Assembly: GCA_965214965.1 (NCBI GenBank)
Contig: OZ244030.1
Span: 266,239-330,238, forward strand
Reading direction: 5' to 3'
DNA: 64,000 nucleotides
Origin: Mycoplasmatales bacterium
GTDB taxonomy: Bacteria; Bacillota_I; Bacilli_A; CBDATW01
The position numbers were made by a program, and so were the translations under genes. The notes under the pieces are model-generated. The model saw only the letters and a program-made list of their open reading frames with translations. It was not told the origin of the DNA and searched no databases. Position 1 is the first letter of the stretch, and every line of letters starts with the position of its first letter. This document shows positions 2,446-56,283 of this stretch, in pieces.

Positions 2446-2449
2446 TTTA

Positions 2450-2475
2450 AAATTCCTAAAAAAGGAATTTTTTAT
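2450..2475 (+). terminator. rho-independent terminator after greA
   Basis: Stem AATTCC / GGAATT with a 7-nt loop, followed by a T-run. Confidence 0.6.
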
Positions 2476-2533
2476 TAATAAATTCATATTTTCCAATTTT
2501 TTAAGATATTTTTTATTTGAAAAGGAGCAGAAA

Positions 2534-2845
2534 ATGAGAGAACTTGAAGAATATGAGTTAGAAAATATGTATGGAGGATCCATTTTATCAGGAGCTGCAA
2601 TAGGTATTGCAGTAGTTTTGGCTGCAGTGGCTGCTTACAGAATGGTCACATCAACCAAAGCTAAAATAAAGCTGCCTAATGGAACAGATATTTCCTTTGA
2701 AAACCCAAGAGAAAAATCTGCAAGCAAAAATTCACTTCAAACTAATAATAAGGCTCAGGAATCATCAAAAATAGTATTAAATGCATTGGATAATAAAGCC
2801 CAAAGTTTTTCTTCAACACCAGGCAATTTTTTAATAAAAATTTAG
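2534..2845 (+). CDS. 103-aa peptide precursor with an N-terminal double-glycine leader and a hydrophobic Gly/Ala-rich helix
   Basis: Strong RBS AAAGGAG 7 nt before the ATG. N-terminus MRELEEYELENMYGG followed by SILSGAAIGIAVVLAAVAAY and a polar Lys/Ser/Asn tail. Insulated by the greA terminator and the rplU promoter. Confidence 0.6.
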   Translation: MRELEEYELENMYGGSILSGAAIGIAVVLAAVAAYRMVTSTKAKIKLPNGTDISFENPREKSASKNSLQTNNKAQESSKIVLNALDNKAQSFSSTPGNFLIKI

Positions 2846-2848
2846 GCA

Positions 2849-2877
2849 TTTACTTTTTAATACATTTTATGTATAAT
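2849..2877 (+). promoter_or_regulatory. sigma-70-type promoter of the rplU-prp-rpmA operon
   Basis: TTTACT (2849-2854), 17-nt spacer, then extended -10 TGTATAAT (2870-2877). Confidence 0.5.
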
Positions 2878-2971
2878 AAACAAGCTTATTAAACTATAAG
2901 CTACAACCTTTGAGAAGAGGCATTCAAGCATAGCGCCTTTATCAAGAGTCTTAGATATAGGAGGTACAAAA
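2878..2971 (+). promoter_or_regulatory. structured 5' leader of rplU (possible L21 ribosomal-protein leader)
   Basis: About 95 nt lie between the promoter and the RBS. Contains hairpin AGCTTAT/ATAAGCT and a GC-richer GAGGC...GCCTT pairing. Firmicute rplU operons carry an L21 autoregulatory leader at this position. Confidence 0.35.
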
Positions 2972-3274
2972 ATGTACGCAATTATTAAAACAGGTGGTAA
3001 GCAATACAAAGTAGAAAAAGGAAAAACAATCTACATTGAAAAGCTTGAAGCTAAAGAAGGTGACAAAGTTACTTTCGAAGAAGTACTATTTGCAAACGGA
3101 AAAGTTGGAGAACCAACAATTAAAGGGGCAAAAGTTATTGGTAAAGTTGAAAAAAACGGAAAAGAAAAGAAAGTCGTTGTTTTCAAATACAAACCAAAGA
3201 AAAAATCAACACGTAAAAAAATGGGTCACAGACAACCCTATACAAAAGTAATGATTGATTCAATCGAGGCATAA
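2972..3274 (+). CDS. rplU: 50S ribosomal protein L21
   Basis: [17 protein letters not shown] is the canonical L21 N-terminus. 100 aa. Confidence 0.95.
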
Positions 3275-3275
3275 A

Positions 3276-3593
3276 ATGACAAATATAACAATAACTCGAC
3301 ATGAAAATACAATTAAATCAATTTCAATTTCAAACCATACAATGTTTGATAAAATTGGAAAAGATATTGTTTGTGCTTCAATTTCTACACTTGCATTCTA
3401 TACTATTAATGCAATAAAAGCTTTTGGAAAAGATTGCTGTGTAAAATCACACATAAATGAAACAAAAACTATTATTTCTTTTGAAACAAAAGAAATAGAA
3501 AAAACATCACAAACATTGCTAGAGTTATTAATTAGTCATTTACTTGAACTTGAAAGACAATACAAAGAAAATATTGAAATAGAGGAGAAATAG
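3276..3593 (+). CDS. prp: ribosomal-processing cysteine protease Prp (YsxB family)
   Basis: Sits between rplU and rpmA as in Firmicutes. Has the conserved His (ISNHT) and Cys (DIVCASIS) pattern. I placed the start at ATG 3276, just after the rplU stop. Confidence 0.85.
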
Positions 3594-3595
3594 AC

Positions 3596-3886
3596 ATGAC
3601 ATTTACAATTCAATTACAACTACAATTCTTCGCTTCTAAAAAAGGGCAAGGTTCTACTAAAAACGGTAGAGACTCTGCTGGTAGGCGTCTAGGTGCCAAA
3701 GTTGCAGATGGGCAATTTTGTACGGCTGGATCAATTATTTACCGTCAAAGAGGAACGAAAATCTACCCAGGACTAAATGTTCAAAAAGGTGGAGATGACA
3801 CACTATTTGCAACAATCGATGGTGTTGTTAAATTCGAAAGATTAGGAAAATCAAGAAAAAAAGCTTCTGTTATTCCACAATCTTAA
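3596..3886 (+). CDS. rpmA: 50S ribosomal protein L27 with a cleavable N-terminal extension
   Basis: [27 protein letters not shown]: an L27 core preceded by a 12-aa propeptide ending in the FF/AS Prp cleavage motif. Confidence 0.95.
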
Positions 3887-17177: not shown

Positions 17178-17390
17178 ATGAACTTTATTACAACGTTATT
17201 TATTGTATTAATTTCAGGGGTAATTGGCTTCTTTATTGGAGCTCAATATAGCAAAAAACAAACTGAAAAATATTTAAAAGAAAACCCACCAATTTCAGAA
17301 AAACAAATTAGAGCAATGTACCTTTCAATGGGTAGAAAACCATCAGAAGCTCAAATACAAGCAACTCTAAGAAATATGGGATTAAAATAA
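17178..17390 (+). CDS. UPF0154 (YneF-like) small membrane protein
   Basis: N-terminal TM helix, then KYLKENPPISEKQIRAMYLSMGRKPSEAQI, characteristic of UPF0154. Confidence 0.8.
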   Translation: MNFITTLFIVLISGVIGFFIGAQYSKKQTEKYLKENPPISEKQIRAMYLSMGRKPSEAQIQATLRNMGLK

Positions 17391-33623: not shown

Positions 33624-34265
33624 TTATTGTATAAAGATTATTATTGTTGCTATAAGATTATTGAAAAAGTGAAATGTAATATTTTTTCCAATATCTTCAT
33701 GCTTATAGTAATAATAACAAAACAAAAATGACATCACACCATATGGGAAAAATTGAATAACCAAATTTAGAATGCTAGCCCCAGACATCAAACTAGGTCC
33801 TATGTGGATAAAAGCAAATGTTAACCAAGAAATGAAAAATCCAATTTTTTTGTTTATTTTACCAACATATTCTTGTATAAACCCTCTAAAAACAAGTTCT
33901 TCAACTATTGGCGCCCAAATTAATAACATAAAAATAAAAAAATATGTTTTTCAACCACCATTCTTCAACGAATCTACAATGTTATTTTGATTAGTTGAGA
34001 CTGTATCTAATTTTAAGCTATATTTTATCAATAACCCCCAAACCCATTGCAGAATTATAGACACAAATAGCAAAATAAAAATTTCTTTTAACTCTTTTTT
34101 GTTGGTTTTTGGGCTAATTCATCTTTTAGAAAAAATGAATATTGCAAATACTGCAGCTATTGTAACTAAAGCCGCCACATGTTGTTCAAGTATTTTTGGA
34201 AGACCCCAGTAAATTGTAGCAATAAGCAAACCATCTAATAATGAAATTTTAGTAATTTTTCTCAT
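33624..34265 (-). CDS. CPBP (CAAX/Abi) family intramembrane metalloprotease, copy 1
   Basis: Motifs EELVFRG, FAFIH and HFFNN. Merged across TGA to ATG 34265 with RBS GAGGAGAG. Confidence 0.85.
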
Positions 34266-34336
34266 TTTACTCTCCTCTTTTGTTAATTTTATCAAAAAAA
34301 ACTACTTGCAGTAGCCTTTCTGTATAATAATTATTT
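34266..34336 (-). repeat. intergenic element copy B
   Basis: TTAATTTTATCAAAAAAAACTACTTGCAGTAGCCTTTCTGTATAATAA. Overlaps the rpmG stop. Confidence 0.6.
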
Positions 34337-34480
34337 CTTTTCTTTGTGAGTAGTTTTAGCATTGCATCTTGAGCAATACTTTAGAATTTCCATTTTTTCT
34401 GGATGCTCTTTTTTATTCTTTTTACCGATGTAGTTTTCTTCTTTGCAAGTTATGCATCTAAATTTGATTTTTACCCTCAT
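34331..34480 (-). CDS. rpmG: 50S ribosomal protein L33 (Zn-ribbon form)
   Basis: [49 protein letters not shown]. Too short for the track. RBS CAGGAG. Confidence 0.9.
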
Positions 34481-34544
34481 AATATAGTCTCCTGTTTTTA
34501 AGCATTAAAATTATAACACAATTCCAATAATGTGTTGTTATTTT

Positions 34545-35198
34545 TTAGCTTAGTATAATAGGTAAAAAGACCAATATAGTCGCTACAAAGTTATTTATAA
34601 AGTGCAAGATTATGTTTTTTCCAATATTTTCGTACTTGTAGTAATATCAACAAAAAATAAATGACAGGACTCCGTAAGGCACAAATTCAACTAATAACTT
34701 AATAAGTGTTGTATCATTTCTTAAACTAGCTATTAAGTGAATAGCTGCAAACAAGAATCATGAAGCAGCAAAACCTACTCTTTTATTTTTCCCTGTGTAT
34801 TCTTGAATTCACCCTCTAAAGACTAATTCTTCCATAAAAGGCGCATTTATAAGAACACCAAATAACATAAATGCAGTATTTCAGCCACCTTGCTGTAAAA
34901 TTTTCACAATTGTGTTTTGGTTTTCAGAATCTGAACTTATTTTTAATATTTCAGTTGAAAATATCCCTCATATAACTTGGAAAACAAGAGCTAATAATAT
35001 TATTCCAAACATTTTCAAAACTTCTTTTTTAGAGACTTTATAATCTATTCTTCTACCAGCCATTCTAAACATCATGATAGTTAGAGTCACTGTTGCTATT
35101 TCTGCAAGACCCACAATTCAAATTGAAAAAGGCAAAAATATTCATAACAAAAATGCAATTAAACCTTCCCTTTTAGTTATTTTTTTAATTATTTCCAT
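34545..35198 (-). CDS. CPBP (CAAX/Abi) family intramembrane metalloprotease, copy 2
   Basis: Not in the track because of many TGA codons. My hand translation gives 217 aa with EELVFRGW, FAAIH and HFINN. Confidence 0.8.
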
Positions 35199-53701: not shown

Positions 53702-55489
53702 TTATAACACAATGTTTAATTGATTAATTTTAAGTTCAACATCATGGTCAACAATTAATATGGTTTTATCACGGTATGTTTTTAAAATATATTTATATAT
53801 TTTGTTTCTTACACCTAATACAACAGAAGACATAGCTTCATCCAGAACCAAAGCTTCAAAGTTTGTTTCTAAAGCTAACAAAACATTTCTTATTTGTCTT
53901 TGGCCATCAGAAACTTCTTTTTGACTTAAATTATATTTTTTAAGATTTATAAGATCAAAACTTTTATCTTTAGGTTTTTTAATTACATTTGTGGTAGAAG
54001 AAATATAAATTTTTCCTGGGTTTGTTTTTGAAAATAATCCACAAAATATTTTCAAATAAGTCGATTTACCAGATCCATTGTCTCCTGTTAATTGAAAATG
54101 ACCTTTAATACCTTCTAATTTATTAGTGTATTCATTTTTTCCGTCATAACTAATAGTGTTGTTATTTTCCTCAAAATATACAACAAAATCTATAAATTTA
54201 TTGTAAGAATCAATTTCAAGTTTGTAATTAAAGATATAACCTCATATTTTTACTAAATTTGTATATAGCATTGTTGCGATTGTAATAAGATAAATCCCAC
54301 TAGATATAGATATTTCCTTATGAATTATTCATATGAAAATATATGCAGATACTATCATGTTAAAAATATATGAAACAAATCCAAAACTTAATAAAACCCA
54401 GTTATTAAATCTCCCTTTTTTATAATTCAAACTAATATTACGGTTTAAATTAGCACTCATAATCTTTTCATATGAAGATTTTTCAAAACCTGAAGAAGTC
54501 TCTATGTTGTCAAATAATTGTAAAAAATTATTTGCAATAGAAATTTCGTTTGTCCTAACTTTTTCATTAGTTTTGAATGTTTTATCTCTAAACATAACTG
54601 TTAAAATACTTGAGAAAACAAATAATGATATTACCGGTATTATCACAATTTTATATTCTGAAACTAATATTATGATCGCTGCAATAGATAGCATAATTGC
54701 ATGTGCAAAATCTGTTTTAGATATTAAATTAAACTGTATAAAATTAACACCTTGCTCCAAAGCGTTGAAAACATGCATTTTAGTGAAATGGCATTTTAAT
54801 TTTGAGTTTTGATCAAGTAAGTAATTAAAAAAATATTGATAAATATCCGAAATTTTCTTCCACAATCTTTTATTTATAAAAATATTTTTTAAATAAGTCA
54901 CCACTAAAGTTATAAGACCAATGATAGCAAATATTAAAACTATTTCTTTTAATATAAAAATATTCTTACTTTCTACAGCAAATAATGCATATTTAAAGTA
55001 AAAACTAATTGCAAATATTAAAGATACCTCTAATATGTTCAATCCCATTAAAGAAATAAATTCCTTCTTATTGCTTTTAAATGGGAAGTTATTTTTTCAT
55101 TCAAATGGTTCCGTATACTCTATGTCAATTAATATAATTTCAGTATCAAGCTTATAATTCTTGATCTTACCTTTTGCAGGGTCAAAACATACAAAGTTAT
55201 TACCAATTCTTTTAATAACTATATAATGTAATCCATAATTTGCTTGAACCATTAAAATAAATAATTTATTTTCAGGTATTTCATTTTTTTGGGCATAGTA
55301 TATTTTGCTTTTCCAACCTAATTTATCTAACCCTGATTTAACTGCTTTTAGTGAGACCCCGTTATTATTAAAGTAAAAATAATCTTTAATTATTTTATCT
55401 GGAATATATTTTTTATATTTTTGATAATAAAAATATTGAAAAGCTCCAATAAAACATTCGTTCTTCATCTTTTTAATTGCTGATAACAT
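53702..55489 (-). CDS. peptidase-C39-domain ABC exporter (PCAT-like), 595 aa
   Basis: Track ORFs 55097-55489, 54329-55048 and 53702-54055 are one frame joined by TGA (junctions checked). N-terminal Cys12 (NECFIGAF), His88 (GLHYIVI) and Asp103 (CFDP). Multiple TM segments. NBD with GDNGSGKST, VSDGQRQ, LVLDEA and VDHD. Confidence 0.8.
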
Positions 55490-55674
55490 AATTACTTCCT
55501 CCTATTTCGTATATAGGCATAAAAACAAAATTTATTAAAAAAAAAGATCTTACTATCTTATTTTTTATTAATATCTTTATATTTAATATAATTAAATATC
55601 CACAAGAAGAATCTTAAGTGTTCAAAAATAACATTAGCAAAAGGCCAAATTCAAAACCATGCAGCAAATCACCT

Positions 55675-56283
55675 TATTTTTATGCTATCTTTCTTTGTAA
55701 TTTTAGAATTGCTAGATAAATAATTAACAATTTTTTGATGAATATATGTAGTTGTTATTGCTCCAAAAAAGAAAACTCAAAGAAACATTACAAAAACAAT
55801 CCCCAAGTATTCAACTTTTTGAAACTCTTTCAAACCAATATATCAAAATAACATAACATAAACCATTGCAAACGCCATGGAGTTTGATATAAATCTTAAG
55901 CCTAAAACGAAATTAGGTATAACTCATTTCTTATCTTTTTTTCAAAGTGTATATTCTGCTCATCAAAATGCTTCCAAAATAGAATACATATTATATCTAT
56001 CTAGTAAATAATACGGAATAATTTGTTTGTGCTTTTTTGTAATTGGAATATAAGGAGTTATAACAAAAAATGCAGGTTTAATTTTTTTTGTAATAATTTT
56101 ATTAGATTTGTTAATGTCTACAACAAGTTCTTGGGAACTAATAGACTTTATTCTAGTTATCAACATAATTAAAAATGAAAAAATAGTAAAAGTAATGCAG
56201 AAAATAATACCTATTTGGTATTCTTTGGGTAATTCAATAAAATTAATTTTTAAAATATTATTTATCATTTTCATAGTTTTCAT
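55675..56283 (-). CDS. 202-aa multi-pass membrane protein, unknown function
   Basis: Track ORF 55963-56283 continues through six TGA codons to TAA 55675-55677 (hand translation). It has 3-4 hydrophobic segments and a Trp-rich region (WWAEYTLWKKDKKW). Confidence 0.6.

What the first reader, a model, noticed from the sequence alone, without database searches (positions are those of the whole stretch)
2534..2845. Stand-alone peptide gene with a textbook double-glycine leader in a Mollicute
Seen in the sequence:
- A 103-codon ORF with a strong RBS (AAAGGAG, 7 nt before the ATG). It is insulated by the greA terminator upstream and the rplU promoter downstream, so it is probably monocistronic.
- The N-terminus is MRELEEYELENMYGG/S. 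Counting back from the GG, hydrophobic residues sit at -4 (M), -7 (L), -12 (L) and -15 (M), with Glu at -8.
- The predicted 88-aa mature part opens with a Gly/Ala-rich hydrophobic helix (SILSGAAIGIAVVLAAVAAY), then a Lys/Ser/Asn-rich tail.

Established knowledge: that spacing defines the double-glycine leaders cleaved by C39 peptidase domains of ABC exporters. It is established for class II bacteriocins and for competence and quorum peptides of Firmicutes.

Context in this window: a C39-domain ABC exporter (53702-55489) and two CPBP/Abi immunity-type proteases (33624-35198).

Inference: this is a GG-leader secreted or processed peptide, either bacteriocin-like or a signal peptide. I am not aware of a characterised GG-peptide/PCAT system in mycoplasmas.
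Basis: partly seen in the sequence, partly recalled or inferred. Interest (0 to 1): 0.8.

Follow-up and report, generated by a model that had tools for sequence, protein, structure and literature searches.

The report
Conserved double-glycine-leader peptide beside rplU
A small membrane-protein gene in a wall-less bacterium (a Mollicute) starts with the signal that a class of cleaving export pumps recognises; it is conserved, always next to the ribosomal gene rplU, so it is the first concrete candidate cargo for the substrate-less pumps of this kind in mycoplasmas rather than a typical toxin gene.

Summary
The 103-codon ORF (2534-2845, +) is real, and so are its RBS and its leader MRELEEYELENMYGG|S. 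It is not an orphan. Exhaustive HMMER found seven relatives in uncultured, partly coral-associated Mollicutes. A leader-level homologue exists in Williamsoniiplasma lucivorax (WP_028126515.1). Every copy lies directly upstream of rplU-prp-rpmA, although the upstream neighbour varies.

The leader is the best conserved region (56% pairwise identity). L-12 and E-8 are invariant. G-2 is Gly in eight of nine copies, and one short copy has Pro-Gly instead. The N-terminal 37 residues pass the cut-off of NCBIfam TIGR03949, a class IIb double-glycine bacteriocin family. Shuffling or reversing the leader abolishes the hit.

The 595-aa product of 53702-55489 has a Pfam C39 domain with conserved Cys12, His88 and Asp103. 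Its orthologue shares a 259-kb contig with a peptide orthologue.

Classical bacteriocin features are missing: there is no linked transporter, immunity gene or partner peptide. The mature part has a strong transmembrane helix and two conserved motifs, and the gene is inherited in synteny.

Best reading (about 0.5): a conserved membrane protein processed and exported through its double-glycine leader by the unlinked C39 ABC transporter. Main rival (about 0.35): an uncleaved single-pass membrane protein.

The parts
2449..2474 (+). Intrinsic terminator of greA: stem AAAAUUCCU/AGGAAUUUU with a 5-nt loop, followed by a U run
   Evidence: -8.4 kcal/mol, z = -2.1. Relatives have similar hairpins upstream of their copies.
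2521..2527 (+). Ribosome-binding site AAAGGAG, 6 nt before the ATG
   Evidence: Strong AGGAGG-type sites also precede most orthologues.
2534..2845 (+). 103-codon gene for the double-glycine-leader small membrane protein (P0001)
   Evidence: Relatives P0004, P0006, P0007 and P0010-P0013 score E 2e-40 to 1e-5 against the family profile.
2534..2578 (+). Leader, residues 1-15: MRELEEYELENMYGG, with predicted cleavage after Gly15
   Evidence: The TIGR03949 hit depends on the leader in its native order. The leader is the most conserved region, at 56% pairwise identity. L-12 and E-8 are invariant and G-2 nearly so.
2579..2638 (+). Gly/Ala-rich hydrophobic helix, residues 16-35
   Evidence: Hydropathy is 2.3 over 19 residues. 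The sequence varies (25% identity) but stays hydrophobic in all members. AlphaFold2 predicts a helix over residues 3-39.
2639..2704 (+). Conserved juxtamembrane motif, residues 36-57: RMVTSTKAKIKLPNGTDISFEN. Family consensus: YK..T[SA].E[AG]K[IV]K[LI]PGGT[ED]ISFE
   Evidence: 55% pairwise identity. K46, P48 and G50 are invariant. A beta-hairpin at 42-46/52-56 is predicted with low to moderate confidence.
2774..2842 (+). Conserved C-terminal motif, residues 81-103: ...LNALDNKAQSFSSTPGNFLIKI
   Evidence: 43% pairwise identity, after a variable linker at 17%.
2849..2877 (+). rplU promoter (TTTACT-17-TATAAT), directly after the stop codon
   Evidence: A conserved extended -10 element is present in all clade loci.
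2895..2961 (+). L21-leader-like RNA upstream of rplU. It marks the downstream border of the peptide gene's transcription unit.
   Evidence: Rfam RF00559 scores 29.7 bits, below the gathering score of 36, with E 6e-4. The sequence is conserved in the clade loci.
53702..55489 (-). 595-aa C39-peptidase-domain ABC protein, the inferred processing and export partner. It lies 51 kb from the peptide gene.
   Evidence: Pfam C39 32.3 bits (cut-off 22) plus ABC_tran. NF045998 'Mbov_0121 family peptidase domain-containing ABC transporter' scores 128 bits, below its cut-off of 500. The orthologue P0008 shares a contig with peptide P0011.
55085..55489 (-). C39 peptidase domain, residues 1 to about 135, with Cys12, His88 and Asp103
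   Evidence: The three residues are invariant in three orthologues. His88 and Asp103 align with ComA His96 and Asp112. Cys12 matches ComA Cys17 by register. The position of ComA Gln11 is Lys6 here.

Best explanation
The gene encodes a precursor with three parts: a 15-residue double-glycine leader, a hydrophobic helix, and a 66-residue tail.

Proposed mechanism (inferred):
1. The leader forms an amphipathic helix. Its hydrophobic face (M-15, L-12, L-7, M-4) and Gly14-Gly15 are recognised in the cytoplasm by the C39 domain of the ABC protein encoded at 53702-55489.
2. That domain cuts after Gly15.
3. The transporter moves the mature 88-residue protein across or into the membrane. There its hydrophobic helix anchors it and its conserved motifs bind a partner.

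The gene is not a typical strain-variable bacteriocin. It is a vertically inherited, core-like gene of a Mollicute lineage, kept immediately upstream of rplU and unlinked from its transporter.

Shown: the gene, its conservation, its leader-specific similarity to double-glycine leaders, and co-occurrence with a C39 ABC protein. Inferred: recognition, cleavage, export, and the final location.
For: - TIGR03949 (class IIb bacteriocin, lactobin A/cerein 7B family) is the only family hit repeatedly, by 5 of 9 members. P0011 scores 21.5 bits, which equals the cut-off, and the window protein scores 20.4.
- The N-terminal 37 residues score 22.8 bits (window) and 25.2 bits (P0011), both above the cut-off. 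The mature parts alone give no hit, and neither do shuffled or reversed leaders. The weaker secondary hits are all double-glycine-leader families: VP1 pheromone, lactococcin G-beta, lacticin 481 and plantaricin C.
- Across the orthologues, L-12 and E-8 are invariant. Position -7 is Leu in all but one (Cys). Position -4 is always M/L/V/F/I/T. Position -2 is Gly in 8 of 9. Position -1 is Gly or Ala.
- The leader is the most conserved region, at 56% identity against 25% for the helix.
- The W. lucivorax protein shares only the 15-residue leader (MRQLTQQELKSTDGG), a hydrophobic segment and the position upstream of rplU. Its mature part is unrelated.
- The C39 domain passes Pfam's threshold and keeps Cys, His and Asp.
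- Peptide and transporter orthologues lie on one 259,357-bp contig about 47 kb apart, much as in the window.
- No other double-glycine candidate was found in the window or in about 150 kb of related loci, and none lies next to the transporter.
Against: - The short orthologue P0013 has Pro-Gly where the others have Gly-Gly. Gly at -2 is regarded as essential for C39 cleavage (my own knowledge).
- The helix is hydrophobic enough (2.0-2.6) to be inserted co-translationally. In the window protein the flanking charges (-4 before the helix, +4 after it) predict the N-terminus outside, out of reach of a cytoplasmic C39 domain.
- The peptide gene and the transporter gene are 51 kb apart.
- The transporter orthologue on a 601-kb contig has no detected peptide partner, and the peptide on a 715-kb contig has no detected transporter. 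Both searches had limited sensitivity.
- The C39 domain has Lys at the position of the oxyanion-hole Gln.
- The ATPase domain has only about 50 residues between Walker A and the signature motif, so full activity is not assured.
- The structure model of the transporter was unusable, with a mean pLDDT of 44.
Confidence: 0.5

Rival explanations
1. The product is an uncleaved single-pass membrane protein. YidC or Sec inserts it with the short acidic N-terminus outside and the basic tail inside. The N-terminal amphipathic helix and the Gly-Gly (or Pro-Gly) break are structural or partner-binding features that merely resemble a double-glycine leader. The conserved tail motifs act in the cytoplasm.
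For: - The segment is strongly transmembrane, and the window protein has a -4/+4 charge asymmetry across it.
- P0013 keeps the helix periodicity but has Pro-Gly, an equally good helix breaker.
- The gene behaves like a housekeeping gene: it is syntenic next to rplU in all members while the upstream neighbour changes.
- The juxtamembrane and C-terminal motifs are conserved.
- There is no linkage to the transporter.
- AlphaFold2 runs one helix through residues 3-39 (low confidence).
Against: - It does not explain why the invariant residues fall exactly on the double-glycine consensus positions, nor why the leader in its native order reaches the bacteriocin-family cut-off.
- It does not explain why the leader is the only part shared with the W. 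lucivorax protein.
- The charge bias is weak in four members, with an N flank of 0 and a C flank of +1 or +2.
- It leaves a C39 domain with an intact catalytic triad without any candidate substrate.
Confidence: 0.35
2. The product is a classical class II bacteriocin or a secreted signalling peptide: an accessory weapon or pheromone made against competitors or for quorum sensing, with the CPBP proteins as immunity factors.
For: - The leader-plus-helix region is similar to class IIb bacteriocins.
- In two relatives (L089, L091) a 59-61-aa two-helix membrane ORF lies directly upstream of the peptide gene, as small immunity genes often do.
- CPBP genes are present in the window.
Against: - The gene is inherited in synteny across genomes whose transporters are only 56% identical. 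The peptide diverges at a similar rate (48-50% identity), not faster.
- The mature part is 88 residues with conserved motifs.
- The window has no partner peptide, no adjacent immunity or transporter gene, and no two-component sensor nearby.
- The CPBP genes are 31 kb away, and the small two-helix ORF is absent from the window.
Confidence: 0.1
3. The ORF is a chance open reading frame in the greA-rplU spacer and makes no protein.
For: None beyond its small size and the lack of any annotation or Pfam family.
Against: - It spans 103 codons in 29% G+C DNA and has a strong RBS.
- Eight further members are conserved at the amino-acid level, with in-frame indels and conserved start and end points.
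Confidence: 0.01

Closest known systems
Class IIb bacteriocin precursors of the lactobin A/cerein 7B family (NCBIfam TIGR03949)
   Same: A 15-residue double-glycine leader with L-12, E-8, L-7, a hydrophobic -4 and GG, followed by a Gly/Ala-rich hydrophobic stretch. The N-terminal 37 residues score above the family cut-off.
   Different: - The whole protein scores 20.4 bits, below the 21.5 cut-off.
- The mature part is 88 residues with a true transmembrane helix and two conserved tail motifs.
- There is no partner peptide, immunity gene or transporter gene nearby.
- It is a syntenic, core-like gene next to rplU.
Double-glycine pheromone and bacteriocin systems with peptidase-containing ABC transporters (ComC/ComA, BlpC/BlpA, CtA/PCAT1; PDB 8hf4, 3k8u, 4ry2)
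   Same: The leader matches the consensus, and the same genome encodes an ABC protein with an N-terminal C39 domain carrying Cys, His and Asp.
   Different: - Substrate and transporter genes are 51 kb apart.
- The C39 domain is too divergent for sequence search against solved structures.
- It has Lys at the Gln oxyanion position.
- The ATPase domain is unusually short.
- No sensor kinase or response regulator is linked.
Mbov_0121 family peptidase domain-containing ABC transporters of mycoplasmas (NF045998), and the JCVI-syn3A gene 0401 discussed in PMC6609329
   Same: Both are Mollicute ABC proteins with a C39 domain and no neighbouring substrate gene. The window protein is a distant relative at 128 bits.
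   Different: The score is below the family cut-off of 500 bits. For those proteins no double-glycine peptide has been reported. Here a candidate exists.
Small N-out single-pass membrane proteins inserted by YidC, such as the Pf3 coat protein (comparison from my own knowledge)
   Same: A short acidic N-terminal tail, one hydrophobic helix and a basic C-terminal flank.
   Different: Those proteins have no double-glycine consensus and no similarity to bacteriocin leaders. There is no sequence relationship.

Membership tests
Double-glycine-leader peptide (substrate of a C39 ABC transporter) | Gly at -2 and Gly/Ala/Ser at -1 | tested here: met
   The window protein has G14-G15. Seven of the nine family members have GG, one has GA, and one short distant member has PG.
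Double-glycine-leader peptide (substrate of a C39 ABC transporter) | Hydrophobic residues at -4, -7, -12 and -15, and an acidic residue at -8, in a leader of about 15-30 residues | tested here: met
   The window protein has M-4, L-7, E-8, L-12 and M-15 in a 15-residue leader. L-12 and E-8 are invariant across the family. The hit to leader-containing HMMs is lost when the leader is shuffled or reversed.
Double-glycine-leader peptide (substrate of a C39 ABC transporter) | A C39-domain ABC transporter encoded in the same genome | tested here: met
   The window has 53702-55489. A second genome carries both genes on one 259-kb contig. Other relatives could not be assessed because their contigs are short.
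Double-glycine-leader peptide (substrate of a C39 ABC transporter) | Genetic linkage of the peptide gene with its transporter (usual, but not obligatory) | tested here: not met
   The genes are 51 kb apart in the window and about 47 kb apart in the relative. The transporter sits in a bmp-PNP-unknown-transporter-ybeY-cdd-era block.
Double-glycine-leader peptide (substrate of a C39 ABC transporter) | Cleavage after the Gly-Gly, concomitant with export | not testable with these tools
   This needs N-terminal proteomics or an in-vitro cleavage assay.
Class IIb bacteriocin, lactobin A/cerein 7B family (TIGR03949) | Whole-protein HMM score at or above the curated cut-off of 21.5 bits | tested here: not met
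   The window protein scores 20.4 bits. P0011 scores 21.5. Residues 1-37 of the window protein alone score 22.8.
Class IIb bacteriocin, lactobin A/cerein 7B family (TIGR03949) | Two-peptide organisation with an adjacent partner peptide and immunity gene, and a short mature peptide of about 30-50 residues (from my own knowledge of the class) | tested here: not met
   The window has no second double-glycine ORF. The neighbours are greA and rplU. The mature part is 88 residues.
Peptidase-containing ABC transporter (PCAT), for the product of 53702-55489 | N-terminal C39 domain with a catalytic Cys, His and Asp | tested here: met
   Pfam PF03412 scores 32.3 bits against a cut-off of 22. C12, H88 and D103 are invariant in three orthologues and in register with ComA C17, H96 and D112.
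Peptidase-containing ABC transporter (PCAT), for the product of 53702-55489 | Oxyanion-hole Gln six residues before the catalytic Cys | tested here: not met
   That position is Lys6, invariant in three orthologues. ComA has Gln11.
Peptidase-containing ABC transporter (PCAT), for the product of 53702-55489 | Six-helix exporter membrane domain and a complete ATPase domain | tested here: inconclusive
   Walker A (GDNGSGKST), signature (SDGQ), Walker B (LVLDEA) and the His loop are present. Only about 50 residues separate Walker A from the signature. Pfam ABC_membrane is not detected. The AlphaFold2 model has a mean pLDDT of 44.
Mbov_0121 family peptidase domain-containing ABC transporter (NF045998) | HMM score at or above the curated cut-off of 500 bits | tested here: not met
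   The score is 128.4 bits, E 2.7e-37, covering residues 10-497. This is a distant relative, not a member.

The most novel reading that the evidence does not exclude
This family is the long-missing natural substrate of the 'orphan' C39 ABC transporters of Mollicutes. In wall-less, genome-reduced bacteria a bacteriocin-type export machine would then have been retained to process and place a conserved, vertically inherited membrane protein. Its gene is fixed next to the ribosomal rplU operon from marine-invertebrate Mollicutes to Entomoplasmatales. That would be a housekeeping use of the double-glycine pathway rather than warfare or signalling.
Probability: 0.35. Interest if true: 0.75.

Novelty: new variant of a known kind. 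Interest (0 to 1): 0.62.

Why it matters
C39-domain ABC transporters occur in many mycoplasmas, including the minimal cell JCVI-syn3A. No double-glycine peptide has been identified for them, which led modellers to propose unrelated functions (PMC6609329).

A conserved candidate substrate with a fixed genomic address, directly upstream of rplU, makes the question testable. One can look for the same small gene in cultivable relatives such as Williamsoniiplasma lucivorax, map its N-terminus, and test the C39 domain on it.

If confirmed, it would show a double-glycine export system serving a conserved cellular protein. It would also give annotators a rule for finding such genes, which are currently labelled hypothetical or not called at all.

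Tried and rejected
- **Word-index protein search with the peptide:** it found only the query itself. The exhaustive HMMER search was needed.
- **Genome-contig scan with GreA:** generic GreA patterns saturated it. The best hits were 57% identical or less, and the source genome and its clade were not recovered. Only one of 80 loci (L026) contained rplU, and that one was informative.
- **Two metagenome-contig scans, with the peptide profile and the transporter profile:** no relatives, so the clade is absent from that collection.
- **Solved-structure sequence searches with the transporter and its C39 domain:** no C39 hit, because the domain is too divergent.
- **Profile-profile comparison with ComA:** it gave the expected register but a low probability.
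- **AlphaFold2 model of the transporter from three sequences:** mean pLDDT 44, so no fold search was run.
- **AlphaFold2 model of the peptide:** mean pLDDT 55, giving secondary structure only.
- **Pfam and PHROGs scans of the family:** nothing.
- **Literature searches for Mbov_0121, MMSYN1_0401, and C39 or double-glycine terms combined with Mollicutes:** no characterised system. Dirix et al. 2004 is not held.
- **Considered and rejected:** a type IV prepilin-like signal (no G|F-T-L-x-E motif; the pilin-like hit was E 0.06 on the helix only); a regulatory leader ORF of the rplU operon (rplU has its own conserved promoter and leader RNA downstream of the stop); and CPBP proteins as dedicated immunity factors (unlinked).

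Full report
**What is in the sequence.**
The window is 29% G+C DNA that reads TGA as tryptophan. alaS and many other genes are intact only under table 4. It comes from a 538,537-bp contig with no close relative in the protein collection.

The ORF at 2534-2845 (+) has an ATG start, a TAG stop and 103 codons. AAAGGAG lies 6 nt upstream of the ATG. It sits between greA (1975-2445) and rplU (2972-3274).

greA ends in a 9-bp hairpin followed by a U run (-8.4 kcal/mol, z = -2.1). After the ORF's stop codon come a TTTACT-17-TATAAT promoter and an L21-leader-like RNA. That RNA scores 29.7 bits on Rfam RF00559, below the gathering score of 36. No hairpin terminator follows the ORF. The gene therefore has its own upstream insulation, but its transcripts may run into the rplU leader.

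Residues 16-34 form a strong transmembrane-type segment, with a mean hydropathy of 2.3.

**The gene is real and belongs to a family.**
The indexed protein search found only the query. An exhaustive HMMER search of 1.84 billion representatives found four relatives. A profile search raised the family to eight members of 60-110 residues (alignment A3).

These members come from long-read metagenome assemblies, a coral metagenome (DRR066340) and a large assembly (GCA_040777325.1).

A ninth protein turned up in the only unrelated locus in hand that contained rplU. It is Williamsoniiplasma lucivorax WP_028126515.1, 117 aa, annotated as hypothetical. Its GTG start gives MRQLTQQELKSTDGG|R....

**The genomic address is fixed.**
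Every member lies on the same strand immediately upstream of rplU-prp-rpmA. The upstream neighbour varies:
- greA in the window, L081-L084, L089 and L091;
- a 395-aa unknown protein in L088;
- rpsU in L085, where radC is inserted between the peptide gene and rplU;
- valS in L090;
- a methyltransferase-like gene in W. lucivorax.

rplU keeps its own conserved promoter and leader RNA between the two genes. This is the behaviour of a vertically inherited, core-like gene, not of a mobile bacteriocin locus.

**The leader is specifically double-glycine-like.**
- NCBIfam TIGR03949 (class IIb bacteriocin, lactobin A/cerein 7B family) is the only family hit repeatedly. Five of nine members hit it, with P0011 at 21.5 bits (equal to the cut-off) and the window protein at 20.4.
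- In a control scan, residues 1-37 scored 22.8 bits (window) and 25.2 bits (P0011).
- The mature parts alone gave no hit, and neither did the full protein with a shuffled or reversed leader.
- The weak secondary hits were all double-glycine-leader families: VP1 pheromone, lactococcin G-beta, lacticin 481 and plantaricin C.
- For W. lucivorax the match is confined to residues 3-17.
- Within the clade the leader is the most conserved region, at 56% mean pairwise identity. The other regions score 25% (helix), 55% (juxtamembrane motif), 17% (linker) and 43% (C-terminal motif).
- The invariant or near-invariant residues are L-12, E-8, L-7 (Cys once), a hydrophobic -4, G-2 and G/A-1.
- A strict pattern for such leaders matches about 5 in 10,000 candidate starts in unrelated DNA. 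One occurrence could be chance. This pattern of conservation cannot.

**The candidate partner.**
- The 595-aa product of 53702-55489 (-) passes Pfam's Peptidase_C39 threshold (32.3 against 22 bits) and has ABC_tran. It is a distant relative of NCBIfam NF045998, 'Mbov_0121 family peptidase domain-containing ABC transporter' (128 bits, cut-off 500).
- Cys12, His88 and Asp103 are invariant in three orthologues. They are in register with ComA Cys17, His96 and Asp112.
- The ComA Gln11 position is Lys.
- The ATPase domain has Walker A, SDGQ, Walker B and the His loop. Only about 50 residues separate Walker A from the signature motif.
- The gene sits in a conserved block: bmp, PNP, a 240-aa unknown membrane protein, the transporter, ybeY, cdd, era. 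No double-glycine ORF lies next to it.
- Its 56%-identical orthologue P0008 lies on the same 259,357-bp contig as peptide orthologue P0011, about 47 kb away.
- Co-occurrence could not be judged elsewhere, because the contigs are short or the searches had limited sensitivity.

**What speaks against simple cleavage and export.**
- The 60-aa orthologue P0013 (L090) keeps L..QEL..I but has Pro-Gly instead of Gly-Gly.
- The hydrophobic segment is a bona fide membrane anchor. In the window protein the charges (-4 before it, +4 after it) predict the N-terminus outside. That orientation would hide the leader from a cytoplasmic C39 domain.
- The mature part carries conserved motifs: K[IV]K[LI]PGGT[ED]ISFE, predicted as a hairpin, and a C-terminal ...NFL[IV][KQ][IY]. 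These suggest a conserved cellular partner rather than a fast-evolving toxin.
- The CPBP genes are 31 kb away and unlinked in relatives.

**Conclusion.**
The double-glycine-leader reading is supported at the sequence level and by conservation. The bacteriocin or pheromone framing is not.

I put about 0.5 on a conserved membrane protein that the unlinked C39 ABC protein processes and exports through its leader. I put about 0.35 on an uncleaved single-pass membrane protein whose N-terminus only mimics such a leader, and about 0.1 on a classical bacteriocin or pheromone.

The papers held here report C39 ABC transporters in mycoplasmas without any candidate double-glycine peptide (PMC6609329; no counter-example). 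This family is therefore a new variant of a known kind, and it is a directly testable lead.

Noticed in passing
window 2849-2961; also L081, L083, L085, L088, L089 and L091 upstream of rplU: A conserved extended -10 promoter and an L21-leader-like RNA precede rplU in all clade loci. The RNA scores below Rfam's gathering threshold (RF00559: 29.7 bits against 36), so standard annotation would miss it.
   Followed up: partly
window 55558-56283 (-); L086 9234-9950; L087 7035-7772: A multi-pass membrane protein of about 240 aa, with no Pfam or NCBIfam family, lies directly upstream of the C39 ABC gene in all three genomes. It may be a functional partner of the transporter.
   Followed up: partly
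window 53702-55489 (-), protein residues 440-595: The ATPase domain of the C39 ABC protein is unusually short: about 50 residues between Walker A and the SDGQ signature, where typical ABC ATPase domains have more (my own knowledge). The oxyanion Gln of C39 peptidases is Lys. Both features are conserved in the orthologues P0008 and P0009.
   Followed up: partly
L089 5797-5982 and L091 9792-9971: In two relatives a 59-61-aa ORF with two hydrophobic helices and its own RBS lies between greA and the peptide gene. Its position resembles that of small bacteriocin immunity genes. It is absent from the window.
   Followed up: partly
L090 10001-10183: This is a short (60-aa) family member that ends just after the KLPGGF motif and has Pro-Gly instead of Gly-Gly. 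Genes in this locus read through under the standard code, so it may come from a lineage outside the TGA=Trp Mollicutes.
   Followed up: partly
L087 9289-11077: The C39 ABC orthologue on the 601-kb contig is split by a frameshift near 'HFTKMHIY'. The assembly has about 7x long-read coverage, so a sequencing error is as likely as a pseudogene.
   Followed up: no
L082 4228-4542: P0005 is a frameshifted version of P0010. The true C-terminus (...NTYFSQNENFLVQY) is readable in another frame. The contig has 1.7x coverage and greA is also broken.
   Followed up: yes
window 3255-3886: The prp (ysxB) gene and an rpmA gene with an N-terminal extension ([12 protein letters not shown]|ASKKG) are present. 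This is the known Prp-processed L27 arrangement of Firmicutes and Mollicutes (known biology from my own knowledge; no domain scan was run on these window ORFs).
   Followed up: no
window 17178-17390 (+): A 70-aa ORF has an N-terminal hydrophobic helix (MNFITTLFIVLISGVIGFFIGAQY...). It is another small membrane protein and has no double-glycine leader.
   Followed up: no
window 33624-35198 (-): Two tandem paralogous Rce1-like/CPBP intramembrane proteases lie here. Their best NCBIfam similarities are to ABC-permease/CPBP fusions and to Mrt/MroQ-type processing proteases. They are not linked to the peptide gene or the transporter gene.
   Followed up: partly
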